In this document: in pieces, positions 5,504 to 18,182 of the stretch
Layout of the letters: the number at the start of each line of letters is the position of its first letter
Numbering within the stretch: the first letter of the stretch is position 1
Assembly: GCF_018336915.1 (NCBI RefSeq)
Contig: NZ_CP064923.1
Span: forward strand, 1,380,001 to 1,412,000
DNA from: Acaryochloris marina S15
GTDB taxonomy: Bacteria; Cyanobacteriota; Cyanobacteriia; Thermosynechococcales; Thermosynechococcaceae
Direction of reading: 5' to 3'
Length of the DNA stretch: 32,000 bases
Notes under the pieces: model-generated
Told to the model about the DNA's origin: nothing
The model's database searches: none
The model's input: the letters and a program-made list of their open reading frames with translations, nothing else
Translations under genes and position numbers: made by a program

Positions 5504-5524
5504 CTTCTTGATCCCATCTTGGTC

Positions 5525-6004
5525 ATGAACGCTTTGTCTCTGCCCCTGCAAATACCTGGACTCATATTACGACCGTGGGACATCCAAGATGCAGGAGCAT
5601 TTCAAAAATATGCTGACAATCTAGATATCTGGCGGAATATGCGGGATGAGTTCCCTTGTCCCTGTACGCACCAGGATGCAGAACGGTGGATTGATCAAGC
5701 CCTTCACAGGGCTGATGGACTATATTGGGCAATTGCCACTGACCAAGAAGCCATCGGTTCCATAAGTCTGCTGATCCATGATGATATTCGTAGGTATTCC
5801 GGAGTATTAAGTTACTGGGTTGGTCAGCCTTTTTGGAGGCAAGGTATCGCCACAGCAGTGATTGCAGGGATTAGTGACTATGGCCTAACAGAACTCAACT
5901 TAATCAGAATCTATGCCAAGGTGTTTAGCACCAACCTGGGTTCTATCCGAGTGTTGGAAAAGAATGAGTTCAAACAAGAAGGATATTTTCGTAAAGGGGT
6001 GTAA
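5525..6004 (+). CDS. GNAT family N-acetyltransferase (RimJ/RimL-like), C-terminus apparently disrupted
   Basis: ATG at 5525 (the track's start at 5519 is TTG). LILRPWDIQDA, SYWVGQPFWRQGIATAVI and IYAKVFSTNLGSIRVLEKNEFKQEG are typical of RimJ-type GNATs. The expected C-terminal strand appears out of frame at 5994-6050 (see findings). Confidence 0.75.
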   Translation: MNALSLPLQIPGLILRPWDIQDAGAFQKYADNLDIWRNMRDEFPCPCTHQDAERWIDQALHRADGLYWAIATDQEAIGSISLLIHDDIRRYSGVLSYWVGQPFWRQGIATAVIAGISDYGLTELNLIRIYAKVFSTNLGSIRVLEKNEFKQEGYFRKGV

Positions 6005-6170
6005 AGAGGGGCAGTTTTTTGATTAAGTGGTCTATGCAAAAGTTGTTTAGTATCGCCAGAGCTATGGGCGAATTCTCTCGACTGTGAACCTTAAGTTTGG
6101 AATAGGGGGCTGAGAGAATCTCACCATGGCAAAACCCTTTGCTTACGCAGAGAGAGGCTGTTGCTATTCT

Positions 6171-9100
6171 TTACTTCTTGGCAGATACCTCTGGGGGAGC
6201 GGCTTTGATAATTCCACACAATTTCCGATCTTGGTCTTTGACCGTAGAATTGGTTCTTAGATAATCGTCTAATAGGTCACACCCTAGATCCATCAAGCGA
6301 TCAAAGTTAAGATTCCATACTCTCACCGTGCGGTCATCACTGGCGGAGGCGATGGTCTGACCATCCGGACTGAAACTGACGCCCCCCACACGACCACTAT
6401 GGCCTTCTAGGGTGGCTTTGAGCTGACCGTCCCAGCCCCATAGTTTGACCGTGCGGTCATCACTGGCGGAGGCGATGGTCTGACCATCCGGGCTGAAACT
6501 GACGCTCCACACACGACCGCTATGGCCTTCTAGGGTGGCTTTGAGCTGACCGTCCTGGCCCCACAGTTTGACCGTGCGGTCATCACTGGCGGAGGCGATG
6601 GTCTGACCATCCGGGCTGAAACTGACGCTCCACACACGACCGCTATGGCCTTCTAGGGTGGCTTTGAGCTGACCATCCCGGCCCCACAGTTTGACCGTGC
6701 GGTCATCACTGGCGGAGGCGATGGTCTGACCATCCGGGCTGAAACTGACGCTCCACACACGACCGCTATGGCCTTCTAGGGTGGCTTTGAGCTGACCATC
6801 CCGGCCCCACAGTTTGACCGTGCGGTCATCACTGGCGGAGGCGATGGTCTGACCATCCGGGCTGAAACTGACGCCTAACACACGATCGCTATGGCCTTCT
6901 AGGGTGGCTTTGAGCTGACCGTCCTGGCCCCACAGTTTCACCGTTCGGTCATCACTGACGGAGGCGATGGTCTGACCATCCGGGCTAAAACTGACGCCCA
7001 ACACACGACCGCTATGGCCTTCTAGGGTGGCTTTGAGCTGACCGTCCCGGCCCCACAGTTTCACCGTTCGGTCATCACTGACGGAGGCGATGGTCTGACC
7101 ATCCGGGCTGAAACTGACGCCATTCACCCAATCGGTATGGCCTTCTAGGGTGGCTTTGAGCTGACCGTCCCGGCCCCACAGTTTCACCGTGCTGTCATCA
7201 CTGGCGGAGGCGATGGTCTGACCATCCGGGCTGAAACTGACGCCTAACACACGACCGCTATGGCCTTCTAGGGTGGCTTTGAGCTGACCGTCCCGGCCCC
7301 ACAGTTTGACCGTGCGGTCATCACTGGCGGAGGCGATGGTCTGACCATCCGGGCTGAAACTGACGCTCCACACACGACCGCTATGGCCTTCTAGGGTGGC
7401 TTTGAGCTGACCGTCCCGGCCCCACAGTTTGACCGTGCTGTCCGAACTGGCGGAGGCGATGGTCTGACCATCCGGGCTGAAACTGACGCCATTCACCCAA
7501 TCGGTATGGCCTTCTAGGGTGGCTTTGAGCTGACCGTCCCGGCCCCACAGTTTGACCGTGCGGTCATCACTGACGGAGGTGATGGTCTGACCATCCGGGC
7601 TAAAACTGACGCCCAATACACGACCACTATGGCCTTCTAGGGTGGCTTTGAGCTGACCGTCCCGGCCCCACAGTTTGACCGTGCGGTCATCACTGGCGGA
7701 GGCGATGGTCTGACCATCCGGGCTAAAACTGACGCCTAACACACGACCGCTATGGCCTTCTAGGGTGGCTTTGAGCTGACCGTCCCGGCCCCACAGTTTG
7801 ACCGTGCGGTCATCACTGGCGGAGGCGATGGTCTGACCATCCGGGCTAAAACTGACGCCCAACACACGACCACTATGGCCTTCTAGGGTGGCTTTGAGCT
7901 GACCGTCCCGGCCCCACAGTTTGACCGTGCGGTCATCACTGGCGGAGGCGATGGTCTGACCATCTGGGCTGAAACTGACGCCATTCACACTACTGCTATG
8001 GCCTGGTATGCCTGGGGTTTGGAGGGGAAAGGGGGTAGTCGGTTGCCATAGCTTAATAGTATGGTCACTACTAACGGAAGCCATGGTCTTGTTTCTGCTA
8101 AACCGAACTTGGTAAATCCATCCCTGATAGCCTACTTGCGCGTTCTCTGAAGTTGGGAACACCAAAGGGGACAACCAATTTTTAAGACTCCACAGTTTCA
8201 CCATGCGGTCCGAACTGGCGGAGGCGATGGTCTGACCATCCGGGCTGAAACTGACGCCATTCACCCAATCGGTATGGCCTTCTAGGGTGGCTTTGAGCTG
8301 ACCGTCCCGGCTCCACAGTTTCACCGTGCGGTCCGAACTGGCGGAGGCGATGGTCTGACCATCCGGGCTGAAACTGACGCTATTCACCCAATCGGTATGG
8401 CCTTCTAGGGTGGCTTTGAGCTGACCGTCCCGGCCCCATAGTTTCACCGTGCTGTCCGAACTGGCGGAGGCGATGGTCTGACCATCCGGGCTGAAACTGA
8501 CGCCTAACACACGACCGCTATGGCCTTTTAGAGTGGCTTTGAGCTGACCGTCCCGGCCCCATAGTTTCACCGTGCTGTCCGAACTGGCGGAGGCGATGGT
8601 CTGACCATCCGGGCTGAAACTGACGCCTAACACACGACCGCTATGGCCTTTTAGAGTGGCTTTGAGCTGACCATCCCGGCCCCACAGTTTCACCGTGCTG
8701 TCCGAACTGGCGGAGGCGATGGTCTGACCATCCGGGCTGAAACTGACGCCATTCACCCAATCGGTATGGCCTTCTAGGGTGGCTTTGAGCTGACCATCCC
8801 GGCCCCACAGTTTCACCGTGCTGTCCGAACTGGTGGAGGCGATGGTCTGACCATCCGGGCTGAAACTGACGCCCAACACACGACCGTTATGGCCTTCTAG
8901 GGTGGCTTTGGGCTGACCGTCCCGGCCCCACAGTTTCACCGTGCTGTCCGAACTGGTGGAGGCGATGGTCTGACCATCCGGGCTGAAACTGACGCCCAAC
9001 ACCCAATCGGTATGGCCCTGCAAGCGATTGTATTCCTTGGTGTGGTAGAGGGTCTGGGCCATAGCAGCCACTACATCTGCTTTCCCCTGTCCCACCAGTT

Positions 9101-10784
9101 GGAATTGGTTGACCTGGCGGGCCGCTTCTAGGCCCTTCAAAATGGCTTCTATCGGTTGATGGCTAAAAAATCGAGCCTGGGAGAGGTTGGTCTTGGCCAC
9201 CACCGTTTGGATTCGCGCTTCTCGCCTACTCTTTTCCGCCCGTTGCCGCTGCACCGCTTCGCCCTGCCGGGCTCTGACTGCCGCAATTCGCTGTTGCTCA
9301 GCTTCCTGACGTTTGGTTTCCGCCAGCCGCTTTTGCCGGGCCTCTTCCTGGCGAGCCACAACCGCCTCTTGCCGCTTTTGTTCAGCAATTTGACGCTGCT
9401 GAGCTTCTTGCCGTTGGGCTGTTTCCGCCACTCGCCTGGCAATATTTGCCTGCACCCGCCGAAGATCAGCCTCCTGTCGTGCCCTATCGGCTGCTTGGCG
9501 TTCAAGGACTGCCTTCTTTCGTTCTGTATCAGCAACATCTCGCTGCTTCACCGCGTCCTGTCTGGCGGCTTCGGCTGCCTGATATTGGATCCAGATAAAG
9601 AAAGCTGAAGGAGCCGGAGCCATTAAAAAAGTGATCCCTAGACCCAAGGCTACCCGCTGCAAGCGTTTTTTCCAGTTAATGGGCAAGTGTCGCTTCACCC
9701 AGGTCTGATCAAACACTCGGTGGTAGATGGGATTCCGCACCTGTAGGTGCCCCTCGTCCTGGCGCACCACCCCCGACAACCGTAGATGGGACTGCACCAG
9801 GGACTGCTCCTCCACCGCTACCGGGTGCTGCTGCCGCCACACCTGCCGATAGGTCGTCAACCCCGCTGCCAAATCTGGCGACCGCTTTGTCAACATATCC
9901 CGGACAAACTGCAAATTGCTATCCTGCTGGCTCTCTTGCCCAAAAAAAGTGCGGTCCACCACCGCCGCCACCGCATCCTCAGACCAGTCCTGCGACTCCG
10001 ACTGCACCAAGGCTTGACATAATCGCTGGGTCAGATAGGGATGTCCCTCCGTCCACTCCAAGACCCAGCCCAGCACCTCGCGACTGGGCTGTTCCGCCAA
10101 CCCCAATCCCGCCATTAGGGGCATTGCTTCATCTAAAGAGAAGTCAGCTAAATCCACTCGCTGGCCGACATTAAAGGGAGTTCGGGTCGGATCTTGAATC
10201 AGATCGCTAGGCGTGGCGACCCCCAACAATACAAAGGAAAGCCGCCCCAGTTCAGGTTGGGTGGCCCGCGCCAAATAGAGGTAGCGAATAGCGGCAAAGA
10301 AATCATCCGTAAAGTTCAGCCTTAACGTCGAGTCAATCTCATCTACAAAAAAGACGACCGGCTCCTCCAGCTCCGACAGCACCACCTCTTGGAAAAAGCG
10401 CGTTAGCCGCTGGGTATCCCCCAGCTCCGACTGGCGCTGCCACCAGGCAATAACATCCGTATCGAGATCCAGTTCATCTTCAATAGTGGTCAAAATGCCC
10501 AGATACCATTTATCTGCCGAGACCTTAGTCCCCAACTGCTGCAAATCAATAATGACCGAGCGAATCCCCTCTGCTTCTAACTGCTTTGCAGTCTTGATCA
10601 TCAGGCTGGACTTGCCCATTTGCCGAGGGGTCAACACATAGGTAAAAATCCGATCCCGACAGAGAACCAAAAGTTCCTGATCCGCTTGGCGAGAGAGGTA
10701 AATCCCTTCTCCTGCCTGAACGGTTCCACCCACAACAAAGGGAGTCTGCTCAGCCACGAAGATGCTCCTGAAAATACTCCGCAT
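6171..10784 (-). CDS. STAND-type P-loop NTPase (AAA-like) - hydrophobic segment - charged helix - 22x WD40 repeat protein
   Basis: The long ORF is open to 10865 in the track. I prefer ATG 10784 (alternative GTG 10757), because upstream residues overlap the preceding gene and the conserved module starts at FVVGGT. Motifs: Walker A TPRQMGKSS, Walker B VVFFVDEID, TPFNVGQ, GHPYL. Then VALGLGITFLMAPAPSAFFIWIQY, an R/E/Q/A-rich ~135 aa stretch, 22 GH...WD units, and a tail NLNFDRLMDLGCDLLDDYLRTN that I recall as typical of cyanobacterial WD40 proteins (from memory). Confidence 0.9.
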   Translation of the reverse strand: MRSIFRSIFVAEQTPFVVGGTVQAGEGIYLSRQADQELLVLCRDRIFTYVLTPRQMGKSSLMIKTAKQLEAEGIRSVIIDLQQLGTKVSADKWYLGILTTIEDELDLDTDVIAWWQRQSELGDTQRLTRFFQEVVLSELEEPVVFFVDEIDSTLRLNFTDDFFAAIRYLYLARATQPELGRLSFVLLGVATPSDLIQDPTRTPFNVGQRVDLADFSLDEAMPLMAGLGLAEQPSREVLGWVLEWTEGHPYLTQRLCQALVQSESQDWSEDAVAAVVDRTFFGQESQQDSNLQFVRDMLTKRSPDLAAGLTTYRQVWRQQHPVAVEEQSLVQSHLRLSGVVRQDEGHLQVRNPIYHRVFDQTWVKRHLPINWKKRLQRVALGLGITFLMAPAPSAFFIWIQYQAAEAARQDAVKQRDVADTERKKAVLERQAADRARQEADLRRVQANIARRVAETAQRQEAQQRQIAEQKRQEAVVARQEEARQKRLAETKRQEAEQQRIAAVRARQGEAVQRQRAEKSRREARIQTVVAKTNLSQARFFSHQPIEAILKGLEAARQVNQFQLVGQGKADVVAAMAQTLYHTKEYNRLQGHTDWVLGVSFSPDGQTIASTSSDSTVKLWGRDGQPKATLEGHNGRVLGVSFSPDGQTIASTSSDSTVKLWGRDGQLKATLEGHTDWVNGVSFSPDGQTIASASSDSTVKLWGRDGQLKATLKGHSGRVLGVSFSPDGQTIASASSDSTVKLWGRDGQLKATLKGHSGRVLGVSFSPDGQTIASASSDSTVKLWGRDGQLKATLEGHTDWVNSVSFSPDGQTIASASSDRTVKLWSRDGQLKATLEGHTDWVNGVSFSPDGQTIASASSDRMVKLWSLKNWLSPLVFPTSENAQVGYQGWIYQVRFSRNKTMASVSSDHTIKLWQPTTPFPLQTPGIPGHSSSVNGVSFSPDGQTIASASDDRTVKLWGRDGQLKATLEGHSGRVLGVSFSPDGQTIASASDDRTVKLWGRDGQLKATLEGHSGRVLGVSFSPDGQTIASASDDRTVKLWGRDGQLKATLEGHSGRVLGVSFSPDGQTITSVSDDRTVKLWGRDGQLKATLEGHTDWVNGVSFSPDGQTIASASSDSTVKLWGRDGQLKATLEGHSGRVWSVSFSPDGQTIASASDDRTVKLWGRDGQLKATLEGHSGRVLGVSFSPDGQTIASASDDSTVKLWGRDGQLKATLEGHTDWVNGVSFSPDGQTIASVSDDRTVKLWGRDGQLKATLEGHSGRVLGVSFSPDGQTIASVSDDRTVKLWGQDGQLKATLEGHSDRVLGVSFSPDGQTIASASDDRTVKLWGRDGQLKATLEGHSGRVWSVSFSPDGQTIASASDDRTVKLWGRDGQLKATLEGHSGRVWSVSFSPDGQTIASASDDRTVKLWGQDGQLKATLEGHSGRVWSVSFSPDGQTIASASDDRTVKLWGWDGQLKATLEGHSGRVGGVSFSPDGQTIASASDDRTVRVWNLNFDRLMDLGCDLLDDYLRTNSTVKDQDRKLCGIIKAAPPEVSAKK
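6282..9017 (-). repeat. in-frame tandem array of 123-bp (41-codon) WD40 units: 7 near-identical + 1 degenerate + 14 near-identical
   Basis: Period 123 bp, measured directly (for example cggtcatcac at 6331 and 6454). Units share long identical runs such as ggcggaggcgatggtctgaccatccgggctgaaactgacgc. The degenerate unit spans about 8004-8156. Confidence 0.95.
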
Positions 10785-12276
10785 ACAGTCGACACCGAGG
10801 CAACACCTGCTGCCCCTCCCGCCGAACCAGCCCCGCCCCTCTAAGCTTAAAAAATAAATGTTCATCCGAGCAGGTCTGCTTCTGAATCACCTGGATCAGT
10901 CCAGCTCTTAAAGGCGTTTGGTCATACATCCGAAACAGGTGATAGCGCAAATGGTCGCCAAACGGTCCCCGATCCTCAATCGCCTCAGCCAACAACTGCT
11001 TCAGGGTATATTCTTCAGTTGCCAACAGATACAAGGCCCGTCGGATCAAATAGGGGTGGCCTTGCAACCAGTCCATTAGCTGGGTTAGCTCTTTTTTGTT
11101 GCAAGGTTGGCCATGACGCTGGTTGAGGTCGGCTACCTGCTCTGCCGTAAAATCCGTCAGCTCTAAGACCTGCCCCACATTAAAGGGAGACTGGGTTAAA
11201 TCGGCAATCAGTTGATAGGGTTCCGTCGACGTGACCAGAGCCAGGTCGAGCTTTTTCCAAACCTTCTTGCGAGCGCGGTTATTGTGCCAGCTACGCAGCA
11301 TACCAAAAAAGTCCGACCGAAACTCCGTACCAAAGATCGCATCCACTTCGTCCATGGCTATCACCACAGCAGTATCCAGCTCTTTGAGTAAATATTTAGC
11401 CAAATATCGGGTACAGCACCTGCCAGGGCTCAGGGCCTCATTCCAATAGTCGGCCACCCGATCCTCTAGCTCTAACTCATCCGTTAGCGCCGAGCAAAAA
11501 CCTTTAAAAAAGCCATCAGCACTAGCAAAATTGGTCTGGTCAAAGAGCTGGAAATCTAAAAAAGCAACGACTTTGTCCGCCTCAGTCGCTGCATTCATGA
11601 CTTGAATCAATAACGAACTTTTGCCCATCTGGCGCGGGCCTTTAATCGTGACGGTCACCCCGTCCCGTTGAATCGCCGATAAGGCCAACTGATCCGTTGG
11701 CCGCTGGATATATAAAGCCGAGTCAGGATCCATGGTTCCTTCCGGCAAATCTAGACTTTGGGGCTGGGCCGCATAGTTGGGGGGCGGTACCTTCATTTTC
11801 CCCTCAGGTTGACCAGGGTTGACCGTCTGCTCTGCAGCCGTGGGACTCAAACCATTCCCCGTCACCGCCTGCTGTAGCTCCTCAATCAGCGTTGGGGTGT
11901 CTTTTAAGCCTTTCCAAACAGCCCAGTTTATGCCATTTAAATAAGCACTCAGGGGATACTTAAATGGTTCAGAATAATCGATGCGTACGGGCAGAATAAC
12001 GGGTCGCCCCTGTTGCTCCTTGGCCAAATGGTGGGCCATTTCCAGTTCACCCTTCACCATTTCACTCTGGACAGAGCTGGTCGACAAAAACACAATCAAA
12101 AAATCGGTGCGCCGCAGCTCTTTCTCGATCCGTTCAGCCCAATGGGTCCCTACCCCCATCCGTTTTTGATCGATAAAGACATCATGTTGAATTTTTAGGG
12201 CCTGATATAAGGCTAGAGCCACGGGTTCATCTGGCTCAACATCTCGCTTATAGCTGATAAAAACCCTTGCACACAT
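10750..12276 (-). CDS. TIR-domain protein fused to a STAND-type P-loop NTPase (AAA-like), with no repeat/sensor domain
   Basis: 508-aa ORF. N-terminus MCARVFISYKRD...DVFIDQ...DFLIVFLSTSSVQSEMVKGELEMA is TIR-like (candidate catalytic Glu77). Then Walker A GPRQMGKSS (nt 11614-11640), Walker B VVIAMDEVD, SPFNVGQ and GHPYLIRRALY. The motif order is paralogous to the N-terminus of the downstream WD40 gene. Confidence 0.85.
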   Translation of the reverse strand: MCARVFISYKRDVEPDEPVALALYQALKIQHDVFIDQKRMGVGTHWAERIEKELRRTDFLIVFLSTSSVQSEMVKGELEMAHHLAKEQQGRPVILPVRIDYSEPFKYPLSAYLNGINWAVWKGLKDTPTLIEELQQAVTGNGLSPTAAEQTVNPGQPEGKMKVPPPNYAAQPQSLDLPEGTMDPDSALYIQRPTDQLALSAIQRDGVTVTIKGPRQMGKSSLLIQVMNAATEADKVVAFLDFQLFDQTNFASADGFFKGFCSALTDELELEDRVADYWNEALSPGRCCTRYLAKYLLKELDTAVVIAMDEVDAIFGTEFRSDFFGMLRSWHNNRARKKVWKKLDLALVTSTEPYQLIADLTQSPFNVGQVLELTDFTAEQVADLNQRHGQPCNKKELTQLMDWLQGHPYLIRRALYLLATEEYTLKQLLAEAIEDRGPFGDHLRYHLFRMYDQTPLRAGLIQVIQKQTCSDEHLFFKLRGAGLVRREGQQVLPRCRLYAEYFQEHLRG

Positions 12277-12747
12277 TACCGGACAAACCTAGAAAAAACT
12301 GAGGACAGTGTTACGACGCGCCTGCAAATATTTAGCCAGAAAGTATAGATAACCTATCCAATATTTATCAGATGTTGTGCCCATAATTACGAGAAAAATT
12401 CCATAAAATCTTAAATTCTACCTAAACTTCTGCTTCATGTTCCCATTACTTTTATCCCACCCCTTACTCCCTTTCCAAGTCATATGATTTAACGCAAAGG
12501 TCAATAGAATTACCTTCCAGTAAAGGCGATTAAACCGATGCATTACCCTCGATATGCCCGCATCGAACCTCTACCAGCAGGCTTTTTTATCCAGAAGTAT
12601 ATATGGAGAACCCGTTCCTAAATCAGGTGCTGCATTCCAAAGCGGGGTAGCGTATCGAAAGCGGAAAGATATTCTCTGGACTTAGTTTGGCTCTATCGTA
12701 GAAACAGATATCGTACCGAACCTGATCAAGACTTTGTCAGAACAAGC

Positions 12748-13170
12748 GTGACTTCCATTCAGATTGCAACAACGGATGACCAGATTCGGGCCTGTTACCC
12801 GGTGATGGTGCAGTTAAGAGCGCACCTAACACTCCTCGACTTTGTTACTCAAGTCCAAAGCCAGATGCAGGCCGGGTACCAATTGGCCTATGCATCCAAT
12901 TCAGAGTGTGTCTGTTCTGTTGCTGGGGTTCGAATTAGCGAAAGCCTAGCTTGGGGCCGATTTTTGTATGTGGATGATTTGATCACCGATGCACAGATGC
13001 GATCGCAAAACTACGGACACCAACTGTTAGATTGGCTCATCCAGTATGCTCGTCAGCAAGACTGTGCTCAATTGCATTTAGATTCTGGGTTGCAACGTTT
13101 GGATGCCCATCGGTTTTACCAGCGGGAAGGCCTGCAAATCAGCAGCTATCATTTTGCCCTCAAGCTCTAA
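12748..13170 (+). CDS. GNAT family acetyltransferase
   Basis: 140-aa ORF with a GTG start. LYVDDLITDAQMRSQNYGHQLLDWLIQYARQQDCAQLHLDSG...AHRFYQREG matches the GNAT acetyl-CoA-binding core (Q/RxxGxG/A-like followed by a helix). Confidence 0.75.
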   Translation: MTSIQIATTDDQIRACYPVMVQLRAHLTLLDFVTQVQSQMQAGYQLAYASNSECVCSVAGVRISESLAWGRFLYVDDLITDAQMRSQNYGHQLLDWLIQYARQQDCAQLHLDSGLQRLDAHRFYQREGLQISSYHFALKL

Positions 13171-15632: not shown

Positions 15633-18182
15633 ATGAAATCCAAAACTCTCAACACATCTATTTGGTACAGCGTTGTTCTCTCGACTTTGCTATTGAGTCC
15701 TGCGTTTGCCCAGTCTTCTTCATCACCTGCTGTCCCTGTCGTAGATCAGCAAGAGATGCAGCGGCTGTTGGAAGAATTGCAAAAGGAACGAGAAGGCCAA
15801 AAACAAGCCCAGGCAGAGGCGACTCAAGCCGTTAATCAAACCACAACTTTATTTAACTGGTTTTTAGTGGTGCTGGGGTTGATTCTGGCCACTGCCATTG
15901 CAAGTTTGATTCTCCTGCGACGGGCCGTGGTGCATGAGGTCGCAGAGGTGGTGCAAAAACACCTGCGAGAGATGCGGGACTTGAAAGGACATCTGGCGGA
16001 TGCAGCGGATGCTGTAGAGGTGATTCTGCAAAAGGCCGAAGATCTCGATACGGACTTACATCAAGAGTCGGAGCAGTTTCATCAAGACTTAACCAGCAAG
16101 CGCCAGCGGTTGTCAGATATGCTGGCAGAATTTTCCACCAAGCAACAGCAAATCCTCCATAAAATCGAAGGGTCATTGACGGATACGGAAGCTGCGATCG
16201 CAACCTTTGAATCCGATTCAACCGCCAAATTTGCCACCCTAGATACGGAACTGAGAACCGAACAGGAAACGATTCTGGCCCATCTCAAACGCCTCGGTGA
16301 AGAGATTGAACCCCAGTTGTTTACGGTCGAGTCCGATGCCCAGGCTCAAAAAACAGAATTTCTAGACCGTTTGAAGCAGTCCGAGACAGATTTCAAAACC
16401 CAATTGTCCCAACTCTTAAACAAGAGCGAACAGGAGCAGGACAAGATCCTGACACGGGTCGAAAAAATGAGCAATGATTTTGGGCCGCAAATGTCGGCTT
16501 TACAAGCCGTTGCTCAAACGGAGAAAGAAACCTTAATTGGCTATCTTGCCACCTCTAAAGCGGAATATGTCACCCAACTGTCTGACCTTCAGCAAGAGGC
16601 CCGTAAACAGTGGGAACTGATTTTGCAAAATCTCAAACAGCTAGAAAGTGATTTCACCCCCCAGCTTGAGGAGATTGAAGGCCAGCTCCAGGTGAAGGCG
16701 AACGAGAAAAAAGATTCATTCCTCCTGCGTCTCAAACAGGTCGGTACCGAAATTACCCGTCAGCTCACAGAAGCGCAAGAAACCTTCCAATCCCAGGCCA
16801 GTGAGACACTGCAACGGCTCCAGGTACAAGAGTCTGAATTCACGACTCAGCTATTCAACTACAGAACTCAGTTAGATACTGAAAAGACCAATGCCCTAGC
16901 CGATGTTCAGGCCCTGACTGACAATGCCTCTACTCTGCTGGTAGACCTAAAGACAGAGGTGCAAACGACCCAAGAGCAGGCGGTTCAAGACCTCGAAGCG
17001 CTGACCCTACAGGTGTCCAGTCAGCTGGCCGACTTGAAGACGAATTTGCAAGGTTCCCAAGAGCAAACCCAGCAGTCTTTGCAAGCCATAGAAGCGAAAA
17101 CAGAACAGGATCTAGCGACCATTACAACGGATGCCCAAGCTCGCAAAGATCAGATTCTCAAACAGCTAGCAGCCCTATCTCCAGCCCAGCTCGCTGGAGA
17201 CGCCGTGGCAGAAATTGATCAGAAATTGCAGACGGCATTGGGGCCTTTAGAGCGCCTACAGGCCAATCATCCCGATCTATTCCTGGATGTTGCGGACTAT
17301 ATCCGGCAAGGAGACGAGCTACTAGCGAACAGCAATTTCCGCCAGGCCCTCTCTGTCTATAATCAGGCGTTGGAGCTAAAAGCCGATGATCCTCAACTTT
17401 GGTGCCAACGGGCCGAAACCCAGAGCGGGCTAAAGCTGTTTGAAGAAGCTGTCGGCTCCCTAGATAAAGCGATTGAGCTGACCCCAGAGGATCCTAAGCT
17501 TTGGCAACGCCGAGGCCAAGTGTTGAAGGACTTACAGCGATATGAAGGCGCGCTCGGGGCTTTCAAAGAAGCGGCAAAGCTGCAGCCGGAAGAGCCCCAC
17601 AACTGGATGGACTGTGGCACTTTACTAGAGCGTCTCCAGCGCTGGGATGAAGCCCTCTCTACCTATGACCGTGTGATTGCCATTGAACCGAACCATCGCA
17701 ATGCCTGGATGAATCGAGGATTTGTGATGGGCATCCTCCAACGTCATGAAGATGCCTTTGCCTCGTTTGATCATGTCGTTCAACATGAATCTGAGGATGC
17801 TGCTGCCTGGTTGAATCGGGGATTAGCTCTGCAAGTTTTAGAACGCCATGAAGAAGCGTTTGAGTCCTTTGAACATACCGTTAATCATAAGCCTGAAGCC
17901 TATAAAGCCTGGAGCCATCGAGGGTATGCCCTGATCAAGCTAGAACGTGATCGTGATGCTCTGGTTAGCCTCAACAAAGCCCTAGAGATTAATGCGGATT
18001 ACCCCAATGCTTACTATGGCAAAGCAGTCTGCTATGTCCTCCAAGGTGAGACAGCCTTAGGTTTAGAAAATCTAGAGCGGGCCATCAAGCTGAACCCAAG
18101 CTTTCGAGAACAAGCCCGCAGTGATACTCACTTCGTTGATTTTCGTGAGGATGAATGGTTCCGTGAACTGGTCAACCGCTAA
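15633..18182 (+). CDS. membrane-anchored coiled-coil protein with C-terminal TPR repeats
   Basis: 849-aa ORF with GAGGAAG RBS. Signal-like N-terminus (LLLSPAFA-Q), TM LFNWFLVVLGLILATAIASLILL, ~450 aa Q/E/L/T-rich helical region with a 29-residue periodicity, then about 8 TPR-like units (for example FRQALSVYNQALELKADDPQLW, AWMNRGFVMG, AYYGKAVCY). Confidence 0.8.
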   Translation: MKSKTLNTSIWYSVVLSTLLLSPAFAQSSSSPAVPVVDQQEMQRLLEELQKEREGQKQAQAEATQAVNQTTTLFNWFLVVLGLILATAIASLILLRRAVVHEVAEVVQKHLREMRDLKGHLADAADAVEVILQKAEDLDTDLHQESEQFHQDLTSKRQRLSDMLAEFSTKQQQILHKIEGSLTDTEAAIATFESDSTAKFATLDTELRTEQETILAHLKRLGEEIEPQLFTVESDAQAQKTEFLDRLKQSETDFKTQLSQLLNKSEQEQDKILTRVEKMSNDFGPQMSALQAVAQTEKETLIGYLATSKAEYVTQLSDLQQEARKQWELILQNLKQLESDFTPQLEEIEGQLQVKANEKKDSFLLRLKQVGTEITRQLTEAQETFQSQASETLQRLQVQESEFTTQLFNYRTQLDTEKTNALADVQALTDNASTLLVDLKTEVQTTQEQAVQDLEALTLQVSSQLADLKTNLQGSQEQTQQSLQAIEAKTEQDLATITTDAQARKDQILKQLAALSPAQLAGDAVAEIDQKLQTALGPLERLQANHPDLFLDVADYIRQGDELLANSNFRQALSVYNQALELKADDPQLWCQRAETQSGLKLFEEAVGSLDKAIELTPEDPKLWQRRGQVLKDLQRYEGALGAFKEAAKLQPEEPHNWMDCGTLLERLQRWDEALSTYDRVIAIEPNHRNAWMNRGFVMGILQRHEDAFASFDHVVQHESEDAAAWLNRGLALQVLERHEEAFESFEHTVNHKPEAYKAWSHRGYALIKLERDRDALVSLNKALEINADYPNAYYGKAVCYVLQGETALGLENLERAIKLNPSFREQARSDTHFVDFREDEWFRELVNR

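What the first reader, a model, noticed from the sequence alone, without database searches (positions are those of the whole stretch)
6282..9017. Near-identical 123-bp WD40 units with variation confined to a few cassette-like codons
Seen in sequence: 22 units of 41 codons. Units 1-7 (8157-9017) and 9-22 (6282-8003) are almost identical at the DNA level; unit 8 is degenerate. Amino-acid differences cluster at a few positions. After GH the units read TDW / SGR / NGR / SDR / SSS. Two residues later they read NG / LG / WS / NS / GG. Other variable spots are the SSDSTV versus SDDRTV patch and GR / GQ / GW / SR in the WGRDG loop. The variants recur as combinations (TDWVNG, SGRVLG, SGRVWS) scattered along the array. 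Unit 13 (7389-7511) is a block-1-type unit (TDWVNG + SSDSTV, using the gtgctgtccgaactgg codon variant) embedded in block 2, and it is identical to unit 3 except for the last residue. Established knowledge: in WD40 propellers the residues just after GH lie on the top ligand-binding face. Fungal HET-E/NWD-type NLRs show the same pattern of highly conserved repeats with a few hypervariable surface positions, maintained by repeat shuffling. Inference: this array is undergoing concerted evolution or unequal recombination that diversifies a recognition surface.
Basis: partly seen in the sequence, partly recalled or inferred. Interest (0 to 1): 0.7.

Follow-up and report, generated by a model that had tools for sequence, protein, structure and literature searches.

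The report
Hypervariable WD40 sensor array, TIR-linked
The array is real: 22 almost identical WD40 blades whose differences sit on the ligand-binding face, in a membrane-anchored ATPase paired with a TIR "suicide" protein, which is a bacterial example of an already described pattern.

Summary
Window 6282-9017 (minus strand) holds 21 in-register 41-codon WD40 units plus one 51-codon degenerate unit. The units average 92% nucleotide and 88% amino-acid identity. Amino-acid variation concentrates at codons 3, 4, 5, 7, 8, 21, 23 and 25, which include the three canonical WD40 top-face hotspots (R1-2, R1, D-1), and at one bottom-loop codon (32). Multi-nucleotide cassettes recur on different backgrounds, and 75 of 171 site pairs fail the four-gamete test, so the units exchange segments.

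The window is Acaryochloris marina S15. The gene encodes AAA_35 NTPase, one hydrophobic helix, a charged helical stalk and the 22 blades. It overlaps by 8 nt an upstream TIR-AAA_35 gene. This gene pair is conserved in most of 17 related species. It is absent from the 98%-ANI strain Moss Beach and present in a more divergent strain, whose first unit differs only at the hypervariable codons.

The best reading is the ligand sensor of a split, NLR-like TIR conflict system.

Three caveats apply. Positive selection is not shown: omega is 0.93 on an a priori top-face set and 0.25 elsewhere. Copy number and unit order are unverified, because short-read contigs break at the array edges. Hypervariable hotspots in highly repetitive bacterial WD40 proteins were already described (Hu 2017; PDB 2YMU).

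The parts
6171..10757 (-). Gene B: AAA_35 NTPase, hydrophobic helix, charged helical stalk, 22 WD40 blades and a Cys-containing tail. 1528 aa from a GTG start at 10757; the ORF stays open up to an ATG at 10865.
   Evidence: ORF and translation. The GTG at 10757 overlaps the stop of gene A (GTGGCTGA). The gene caller used the same start on two independent Logan contigs.
9708..10721 (-). AAA_35 (PF14516) P-loop NTPase domain of gene B, with intact Walker A (GKS) and Walker B (DEID).
   Evidence: Pfam E = 2.8e-36. G48, K49 and D139-D142 are invariant in a 56-sequence alignment. The AF2 model has pLDDT 85.9. Foldseek finds archaeal ATPase_2, ORC/Cdc6, MalT and Avs3/4.
9594..9650 (-). Single hydrophobic segment ALGLGITFLMAPAPSAFFI, a predicted membrane anchor. 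The 15 residues before it carry net charge +6.
   Evidence: Kyte-Doolittle 19-residue mean of 1.71. An equivalent single segment follows AAA_35 in at least 12 relatives, with means of 1.85-2.6 where it was the top-scoring segment. No dedicated topology predictor was available.
9204..9593 (-). A/E/Q/R-rich charged segment of about 130 aa, an inferred helical stalk (coiled coil or single alpha-helix).
   Evidence: Composition is visible in the translation. There is a weak low-complexity hit to Borrelia_P83. The sister strain carries a 14-aa indel here. The helical or coiled-coil state is inferred, not tested.
8157..9017 (-). WD40 block 1: seven 41-codon units, mostly of SSDSTV type. The last 11 codons of unit 7 are divergent.
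8004..8156 (-). Degenerate 51-codon WD40-like unit separating the two blocks.
   Evidence: Its sequence is PTSENAQVGYQGWIYQVRFSRNKTMASVSSDHTIKLWQPTTPFPLQTPGIP.
6282..8003 (-). WD40 block 2: fourteen 41-codon units, mostly of SDDRTV type. One block-1-type mosaic unit lies at 7389-7511.
   Evidence: The block is about 78% identical to the 14-blade Nostoc punctiforme protein 2YMU.
6174..6311 (-). C-terminal tail LNFDRLMDLGCDLLDDYLRTNSTVKDQDRKLCGII..., containing two cysteines.
   Evidence: A similar two-Cys tail is present in Stigonema L002, Mastigocoleus L005 and Synechococcales L012.
10750..12276 (-). Gene A: TIR_2 (11911-12264) plus AAA_35 (10765-11748), 508 aa. It lies immediately upstream of gene B and overlaps it by 8 nt.
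   Evidence: Pfam gives TIR_2 at 1.6e-21 and AAA_35 at 3.8e-113. The two AAA_35 domains are 29% identical. The exact protein is QUY43881.1 of A. marina S15.
6101..12756 (.). Strain-variable segment carrying genes A and B. It is absent at the syntenic site in the AP026075 strain and, as 5644-12743, in strain Moss Beach.
   Evidence: blastn of L021 and L027 against the window. G+C is 0.51-0.60 here against 0.42-0.49 in the flanks. No terminal repeats were found.

Best explanation
The array is the ligand-binding sensor of a two-gene, NLR-like conflict (abortive-infection type) module in Acaryochloris marina S15.

**Components.** Gene B encodes an active-looking AAA_35 P-loop NTPase, a membrane-anchoring helix, a long charged helical stalk and 22 WD40 blades. 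The blades probably form one 8-bladed and two 7-bladed propellers. Gene A, translationally coupled upstream, encodes a TIR domain fused to a paralogous AAA_35 domain.

**Proposed mechanism (inferred).** A ligand binds the propeller top faces. This releases or re-orients the AAA_35 domain of B. That domain co-oligomerises, NTP-dependently, with the AAA_35 domain of A. The TIR domains are brought together and NAD+ is degraded.

**Evolution of the array (shown).** The blades are recently amplified or homogenised, at about 92% nucleotide identity. They keep exchanging sub-unit segments by intragenic recombination or gene conversion. Synonymous variation is spread evenly along the unit, whereas amino-acid variation concentrates on the top-face positions that make contacts in WD40 proteins. 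This yields a set of blades with different contact residues on an invariant scaffold.
For: - **Anatomy:**
- **Domains:** WD40 and AAA_35; TIR_2 plus AAA_35 in the overlapping upstream gene. The Walker motifs are invariant.
- **Fold of AAA_35:** an NBD, helical and winged-helix arrangement. Its nearest solved folds are archaeal ATPase_2, ORC/Cdc6, MalT and Avs3/4.
- **Conserved gene pairing:** of the 15 of 17 related loci that carry an overlapping or abutting upstream ORF, 11 show the TIR motif; all 5 of those that were scanned are TIR_2-AAA_35 or CHAT-TIR_2-AAA_35. Two of the 15 have a helix-turn-helix-like N-terminus before AAA_35, and two are N-terminally truncated fragments.
- **Variable C-terminal modules on the same AAA_35 clade:** WD40, TPR, pentapeptide repeats and CHASE2.
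- **Accessory status:** the module is absent from the syntenic site in strain Moss Beach, whose flanks are 97-99% identical, and in the AP026075 strain. It is present in a strain only 88.7% identical.
- **Top-face concentration:** the hotspot rule places R1-2, R1 and D-1 at codons 5, 7 and 23. All three are among the six most variable positions here, and they are the top three in the Stigonema homologue. Nonsynonymous sites are enriched on the top face (p = 2.9e-4) while synonymous sites are not.
- **Mosaicism:**
- **Between-strain evidence:** in the first 49 nt of unit 1, all 6 differences lie in codons 3, 4, 5 and 7, while the AAA_35 domain is 95.3% identical.
- **Closest solved structure:** 2YMU, a 14-blade recently amplified cyanobacterial WD40 protein.
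Against: - No function was tested. PADLOC has no model for the pair beyond generic TIR hits, and no paper on this pair was found.
- Omega on the a priori top-face set is 0.93, not above 1, so relaxed constraint could explain the pattern.
- Single-sequence AF2 of the WD40 region was poor (pLDDT 49.9), so the 8+7+7 propeller arrangement is unverified.
- If the hydrophobic segment is a true transmembrane helix, the propellers lie outside the cytoplasm. That differs from classical cytosolic NLR sensing.
- Array copy number and unit order rest on a single assembly.
Confidence: 0.6

Rival explanations
1. The array is a recently amplified WD40 propeller with no diversifying function. Blades were duplicated recently. 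Surface positions tolerate change, so they drift, while core positions are purified. The mosaic pattern is a by-product of recombination between near-identical repeats. The protein could be a scaffold rather than a variable receptor.
For: - Omega is about 0.93 on the a priori top-face codons, indistinguishable from neutrality.
- Only a handful of variant cassettes exist, and many units are identical or nearly so.
- Recently amplified cyanobacterial propellers such as 2YMU are known as a class. Hu 2017 treats them as young repeats.
Against: - Changes at the hot codons are radical and multi-nucleotide: TGG/CGT, GAT/GGT, TCG/GAT.
- The three most variable positions coincide with the three contact hotspots in two independent arrays.
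- The orthologous first unit of a sister strain differs only at these codons.
- The partner is a TIR protein, and the module is a strain-level accessory element.
Confidence: 0.25
2. The array is wholly or partly an assembly artefact. Its copy number, unit order and some unit-to-unit differences could come from mis-assembly, or from mis-polishing of long reads with short reads that cannot be placed uniquely in a 2.7-kb near-identical array.
For: - Independent short-read (Logan) contigs from the same strain stop at window 8973 and 6354, the two edges of the array. The sister strain's contig stops in unit 1.
- Many database homologues are annotated 'partial'.
- The exact protein was not found in the protein collection, although its neighbours were.
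Against: - The reading frame is intact over 912 codons, with no frameshift.
- The differences are coherent in-frame codon cassettes, not scattered indels.
- A homologous 14-unit array with the same variable positions occurs on a 5.4-Mb Stigonema contig. A 14-blade relative has been crystallised.
Confidence: 0.1
3. The protein is an envelope or cell-surface structural or adhesion protein rather than an immune sensor. It would be anchored in the membrane, with a long stalk presenting propellers in the periplasm for cell-cell or host (red alga) contact. The TIR protein would act as a scaffold.
For: - A conserved single hydrophobic segment with positive charges before it, a long charged stalk, and a conserved Cys pair in the tail.
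- Sister architectures carry CHASE2 and CarboxypepD_reg-like modules.
- S15 is an epiphyte of red algae (PMC9029297).
Against: - There are two intact P-loop NTPase domains, plus a TIR domain with a glutamate at a fixed position in the S15 protein and in the 11 TIR-bearing partner ORFs.
- CHAT-TIR partners occur in relatives.
- The combination of a variable C-terminal module, an NTPase and a death-type effector is the signature of conflict systems (Kaur 2020, PMC7159879).
Confidence: 0.05

Closest known systems
Highly repetitive (HR) / recently amplified WD40 propellers of cyanobacteria, e.g. the Nostoc punctiforme WD-40 repeat protein in PDB 2YMU and the derived WRAP constructs 7BID-7BIG and 6R5Y-6R60
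   Same: - 41-residue units with nearly the same consensus: [41 protein letters not shown] against [41 protein letters not shown].
- A 14-unit block, and variation at position 7 (R/W/N).
- Hu 2017 already notes that HR WD40 repeats are conserved except at predicted interaction hotspots, and that half of such proteins are bacterial.
   Different: - There are 22 blades in two sequence-distinct blocks.
- The blades are fused to an AAA_35 NTPase through a hydrophobic helix and a stalk, and paired with a TIR gene.
- More positions vary here (codons 3-5, 7, 8, 21, 23, 25).
Fungal HET-E / HET-D / NWD (HNWD) NACHT-WD40 NLRs of Podospora anserina
   Same: WD40 repeats with more than 85% internal identity, a few variable positions on the binding surface, and exchange between repeats (Dyrka 2014, PMC4986451). 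They are linked to a cell-death-type effector and are polymorphic between strains.
   Different: - The NTPase is AAA_35, not NACHT.
- The effector (TIR) is on a separate polypeptide that has its own NTPase.
- A membrane anchor lies between the NTPase and the repeats.
- Positive selection and repeat-number polymorphism are not shown here.
Bacterial antiviral STAND / NLR-related proteins (Avs1-5, bNACHT)
   Same: The same logic of effector, oligomerising P-loop NTPase and variable repeat sensor. Avs3, Avs4 and EfAvs5 are among the structural neighbours of the AAA_35 model.
   Different: - The structural similarity is only moderate (query-normalised TM-score 0.40-0.42). The best hits are archaeal ATPase_2 proteins and ORC/Cdc6.
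- There is no PADLOC hit for gene B's NTPase.
- The system is split into two genes, each with its own NTPase.
- The sensor is WD40 behind a hydrophobic helix.
Apaf-1 (WD40-sensing apoptosome NTPase)
   Same: WD40 propellers C-terminal to an oligomerising NTPase act as the ligand sensor. Apaf-1 aligns over 530 residues of the array (E = 1e-62). It has 7- and 8-bladed propellers (own knowledge), as inferred here.
   Different: Apaf-1 has an NB-ARC NTPase, diverged blades, no membrane segment, and a CARD effector on the same chain.

Membership tests
Highly repetitive / recently amplified WD40 proteins (Hu 2017; 2YMU class) | Tandem WD40 repeats recognised by profile | tested here: met
   PF00400 gives 21 stretches, E = 5.3e-274. 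2YMU matches at E = 6.5e-259.
Highly repetitive / recently amplified WD40 proteins (Hu 2017; 2YMU class) | High internal repeat identity (above 85% over at least 100 aa, the criterion used by Dyrka 2014) | tested here: met
   Mean identity of the 19 complete units is 88.3% amino acid and 92.2% nucleotide.
Highly repetitive / recently amplified WD40 proteins (Hu 2017; 2YMU class) | Residual diversity at predicted top-face hotspots (R1-2, R1, D-1) | tested here: met
   Codons 5, 7 and 23 are all among the six most variable positions. The chance probability is 0.0019.
Highly repetitive / recently amplified WD40 proteins (Hu 2017; 2YMU class) | Folds into closed 7- or 8-bladed propellers | tested here: inconclusive
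   The single-sequence AF2 model has pLDDT 49.9. The arrangement is inferred only from about 78% identity to 2YMU.
Fungal HNWD / HET-E type NLRs | NACHT nucleotide-binding domain | tested here: not met
   Pfam finds AAA_35, not NACHT or NB-ARC. Foldseek best hits are ATPase_2 and ORC.
Fungal HNWD / HET-E type NLRs | Effector domain on the same polypeptide, N-terminal to the NTPase | tested here: not met
   Gene B starts directly with AAA_35. TIR is on gene A.
Fungal HNWD / HET-E type NLRs | Positive diversifying selection at a few surface codons | tested here: inconclusive
   Omega is 1.75 for codons chosen post hoc and 0.93 for the a priori top-face set, against 0.25 elsewhere. No recombination-aware codon model was available.
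Fungal HNWD / HET-E type NLRs | Exchange or shuffling between repeats (concerted evolution) | tested here: met
   75 of 171 site pairs show four gametes, and the 7-nt TDW+N cassette occurs on four backgrounds. This is within one gene only; exchange between paralogues could not be tested.
Fungal HNWD / HET-E type NLRs | Repeat-number polymorphism among isolates | not testable with these tools
   Short-read contigs of S15 and of the sister strain end at the array edges.
Bacterial antiviral STAND (Avs / bNACHT) | STAND-class NTPase (NBD, helical and winged-helix domains) recognisable by family models | tested here: inconclusive
   The AF2 model shows an NBD, a helical region and a beta-hairpin winged-helix-like end. 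Avs3, Avs4 and MalT are among the hits at query-normalised TM-score of about 0.4, but ORC/Cdc6 and ATPase_2 score better. There is no PADLOC hit.
Bacterial antiviral STAND (Avs / bNACHT) | Demonstrated protection against phage | not testable with these tools
Diversity-generating retroelement (DGR) targets | Nearby reverse transcriptase and template repeat, with adenine-specific changes | tested here: not met
   No RT is present among the window ORFs. The variant codons are swaps such as ACC/AGC, GAT/GGT, TGG/CGT and TCG/GAT, not A-directed changes.

The most novel reading that the evidence does not exclude
The hydrophobic segment may be a genuine single-pass anchor, N-terminus inside. The charged stalk and the 22 hypervariable WD40 blades would then lie outside the cytoplasm, in the periplasm or thylakoid lumen. 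The AAA_35 domain inside would recruit the TIR-AAA_35 partner.

This would make the pair a bacterial transmembrane pattern-recognition receptor with Toll-like logic: an extracytoplasmic repeat sensor, a transmembrane helix and cytoplasmic TIR signalling. It would be built from different parts, diversified by repeat shuffling, and not yet described as a defence system.
Probability: 0.2. Interest if true: 0.7.

Novelty: new member of a known kind. Interest (0 to 1): 0.4.

Why it matters
The array adds a clean prokaryotic example of a pattern best known from fungal NLRs: near-identical repeats whose contact residues vary and are reshuffled. It comes with direct evidence of sub-unit mosaicism and one between-strain comparison.

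It also points to a widespread, apparently uncharacterised two-gene module, TIR-AAA_35 plus AAA_35-anchor-repeat sensor, in cyanobacteria and a few other phyla. That module is a reasonable candidate defence system and may sense at the cell envelope.

In practice, such arrays break short-read assemblies. They are therefore under-represented or truncated in databases, where many homologues are labelled 'partial'.

Tried and rejected
- **AF2 on the whole WD40 region without an alignment.** It gave pLDDT 49.9 and could not be used to map residues. The tools return no coordinates, so top and bottom assignment rests on the published hotspot rule and on homology to 2YMU.
- **Exact look-up of the WD40 protein.** Three alternative starts were tried and none is in the collection.
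- **Genome-contig scan.** It returned no Acaryochloris locus, only relatives at 37-62% identity.
- **Metagenome-contig scan.** A 32-nt pattern from the conserved part of the unit gave 0 matches.
- **Protein search with the last three units plus the tail.** The best hits were only 58-66% identical and none were named Acaryochloris, so no second allele of the array was recovered.
- **Literature search for AAA_35 / PF14516.** The hits were irrelevant string matches. Kaur 2020, Kaur 2021 and Doré 2024 describe related conflict systems (iSTAND, VMAP, DGR targets) but not this pair.
- **iSTAND ternary system, rejected.** There is no MoxR or vWA gene nearby, and the Walker motifs are intact.
- **DGR, rejected.** See the membership test.
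- **Mobile-element borders.** No direct or inverted repeats of 9 nt or more were found at the two indel edges. The window holds no transposase, integrase, tRNA or Rfam match.
- **Promoter and terminator scans.** Counts were no higher than in shuffled sequence.
Full report
**1. The observation**

Tandem Repeats Finder reports a single array in the window, at 6325-9017, with period 123, 21.7 copies and score 3546. It lies inside one intact minus-strand ORF, 6171-10865.

Cut in the GH register, the array has 21 units of exactly 41 codons. Seven lie at 8157-9017 and fourteen at 6282-8003. A degenerate unit of 51 codons sits between them at 8004-8156. The last 11 codons of unit 7 and the last 13 of unit 22 depart from the consensus.

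The 19 complete units share on average 92.2% of nucleotides and 88.3% of residues. The codon variant GTGCTGTCCGAACTGG occurs five times in block 1 and once in that unit, with none expected by chance.

**2. Where the variation lies**

Among the 19 complete units, 30 of 123 nucleotide sites vary. Thirteen codons vary in amino acid: 3, 4, 5, 7, 8, 19, 21, 23, 25, 31, 32, 36 and 41.

Wu et al. 2012 (PMC3419727) define the top-face hotspots from sequence alone:
- R1 and R2 are the two residues enclosed by V/L/I in strand a.
- R1-2 lies two residues before R1.
- D-1 is the residue before the tetrad Asp.

In this unit, GH-x-x-x-V-x-x-V...S-x-D, that places R1-2 at codon 5, R1 at codon 7 and D-1 at codon 23. 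All three are among the six most variable positions (7, 4, 3, 5, 21, 23). In the Stigonema homologue L002 they are the three most variable positions.

I fixed a top-face set in advance from WD40 topology: the D-A loop (codons 41 and 1-5), R1 (codon 7) and the B-C turn (codons 23-25).
- It holds 13 of 21 nonsynonymous segregating sites (binomial p = 2.9e-4 against 10/41).
- It holds only 2 of 9 synonymous sites, close to the 10/41 share expected.

**3. Selection**

Nei-Gojobori omega gives different answers depending on how the codons are chosen.

| Codon set | Omega |
|---|---|
| Nine codons chosen because they vary (post hoc) | 1.75 |
| All remaining codons (relative to the nine) | 0.08 |
| A priori top-face set | 0.93 |
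| Bottom loops | 0.25 |
| Strands | 0.26 |

The first contrast is circular, because the codons were picked for varying. The honest statement is that constraint is strongly lifted on the top face. An excess over neutrality is not shown. The units are also not independent samples.

**4. Mosaicism**

The seven-nucleotide haplotype encoding TDW plus N (sites 8, 11, 13, 15, 19, 20, 21) occurs on four different downstream backgrounds:
- TCG/AGC/G81 in unit 3
- TCG/CGC/G81 in units 6 and 7

Of 171 pairs of informative biallelic sites, 75 show all four combinations.

Independent recurrence of 7-nt haplotypes is implausible. Segments shorter than one unit must therefore have been exchanged between units, including between the two blocks.

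**5. The gene and its partner**

The window is from Acaryochloris marina S15. Its FtsH4, RpoD-type sigma factor, PNP oxidase and the TIR protein match QUY43885, QUY43888, QUY43879 and QUY43881 exactly, on a 5,881,945-bp record.

Gene B most likely starts at the GTG at 10757, which overlaps the stop codon of the upstream gene (GTGGCTGA). The gene caller used the same start on two independent Logan contigs. From N- to C-terminus, gene B encodes:
- An AAA_35 domain (PF14516, E = 2.8e-36), with invariant Walker A and B residues.
- One hydrophobic segment preceded by six net positive charges.
- An A/E/Q/R-rich stretch of about 130 residues.
- The 22 blades.
- A tail with two cysteines.

An AF2 model of the N-terminal domain, built with a 56-sequence alignment, is confident (pLDDT 85.9). 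Its nearest solved folds are archaeal ATPase_2 proteins (2QEN, 2FNA), ORC/Cdc6, MalT and Avs3/Avs4, with query-normalised TM-scores of 0.35-0.49. This is an AAA+/STAND-grade NTPase, not NACHT or NB-ARC.

Gene A (10750-12276) encodes TIR_2 plus AAA_35. Its AAA_35 domain is 29% identical to that of gene B. A glutamate occupies a fixed position in the SEMVxGE motif of the S15 protein and of the 11 partner ORFs that carry the TIR region. From my own knowledge of bacterial TIR NADases, this is the expected place for the catalytic Glu. That assignment is an inference.

**6. Conservation and distribution**

Scanning one genome per species returned 17 loci with relatives of gene B's N-domain, at 37-62% identity. 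They come from cyanobacteria, one Blastocatellia genome and one Verrucomicrobia genome.

In 15 of the 17 loci an ORF abuts or overlaps the start of the gene. Eleven of these show the TIR motif, and two more are truncated fragments. Of the seven scanned with Pfam, five are TIR_2-AAA_35 or CHAT-TIR_2-AAA_35, and two have a helix-turn-helix-like N-terminus before AAA_35.

The same AAA_35 clade carries WD40, TPR with CarboxypepD_reg, pentapeptide repeats or CHASE2 at its C-terminus. The single hydrophobic segment after AAA_35 recurs in at least 12 relatives. The two-Cys tail recurs in three complete WD40 homologues.

Stigonema L002, on a 5.4-Mb contig, has fourteen 41-residue units that vary at codons 3, 4, 5, 7, 22 and 23.

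**7. Strain comparison**

In strain Moss Beach the flanks are 97-99% identical to S15, and the published ANI is 98% (PMC9029297). In the AP026075 strain the same core genes flank the site. Segment 6101-12756 (5644-12743 relative to Moss Beach) is missing in both.

A third lineage, SRR12447953, is only 88.7% identical over the region but does carry both genes at the same site. Its contig ends 49 nt into unit 1. Within those 49 nt, all six differences from S15 lie in codons 3, 4, 5 and 7, giving TDWVL in S15 against SSRVW. By comparison, the AAA_35 domain is 95.3% identical. This is a small sample, but it shows directly that alleles differ at the hypervariable codons.

The segment has higher G+C (0.51-0.60) than its flanks (0.42-0.49). 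It has no terminal repeats and no mobility genes.

**8. Reliability of the assembly**

Logan short-read contigs of SRR12447961 are identical to the window, but they stop at 8973 and at 6354, the two edges of the array. Copy number and unit order therefore rest on the deposited assembly alone.

The open frame over 912 codons and the coherent codon cassettes argue against gross error.

**9. What is already known**

- The closest solved structure is 2YMU, the 14-blade Nostoc punctiforme protein. Its units share nearly the same consensus and also vary at position 7.
- Hu et al. 2017 catalogued 305 highly repetitive WD40 proteins, half of them bacterial. They noted that these are conserved except at predicted interaction hotspots.
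- Dyrka et al. 2014 summarise the fungal case: more than 85% internal identity, four selected codons on the binding surface, concerted evolution and repeat-number polymorphism.

The array is thus a new member of a known kind. What I did not find described is the TIR-AAA_35 plus AAA_35-anchor-WD40 gene pair. PADLOC gives only generic TIR hits for gene A and nothing for gene B's NTPase, and the literature searches were empty.

**10. Verdict**

The best explanation is the ligand sensor of a split, NLR-like TIR conflict module. The most novel reading still open is that the sensor is extracytoplasmic, which would give the system Toll-like logic.

Noticed in passing
window 10750-12276 (-), overlapping gene B at 10750-10757: A TIR_2-AAA_35 gene is translationally coupled to the WD40 gene. 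Overlapping or abutting upstream AAA_35 partner ORFs occur at 15 of 17 related loci from several phyla. Most carry TIR, some with an added N-terminal CHAT domain, and two have a helix-turn-helix-like N-terminus. PADLOC has no model for this pair.
   Followed up: yes
window 6101-12756 (5644-12743 relative to Moss Beach, L027): The two-gene module is a presence/absence polymorphism within Acaryochloris. It is missing in the 98%-ANI strain Moss Beach and in AP026075, and present in a more divergent strain (SRR12447953). Its G+C is higher than that of the flanks. It has no terminal repeats and no mobility genes.
   Followed up: yes
window 9594-9650 and 6174-6311: A single hydrophobic segment with positive charges before it lies between the NTPase and the stalk. 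The C-terminal tail has a conserved pair of cysteines. Both features recur in relatives and hint that the propellers may be extracytoplasmic.
   Followed up: partly
window 8973 and 6354; L018, L019, L020: Short-read (Logan) contigs of the same strain and of a sister strain end exactly at the array edges. Many database homologues are labelled 'partial'. These arrays systematically break assemblies.
   Followed up: yes
window 6171-10865: The exact product of the WD40 gene was not found in the 15-billion-protein collection with any of three tested starts, although both neighbours are present (QUY43879, QUY43881). Only one accession number lies between them, yet two genes are there (the GNAT gene at 5519-6004 and the WD40 gene). 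One of the two may be unannotated or marked as a pseudogene in the record.
   Followed up: partly
window 15633-18182 (+): An 849-aa protein has TPR repeats in its C-terminal third. Its N-terminal 590 residues have no significant Pfam match. It is conserved at this position in all Acaryochloris strains examined.
   Followed up: no
L021 5127-7021 (AP026075): The FtsH4 orthologue is called as two overlapping ORFs (464 and 170 aa) in this strain, against a single 633-aa gene in S15 and Moss Beach. This could be a frameshift or a sequencing error.
   Followed up: no
L020 8892-9037 versus window 9428-9531: The charged stalk differs between the two strains by a 14-residue indel and is the least conserved part outside the array (86% identity). 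Stalk length appears to be variable.
   Followed up: no
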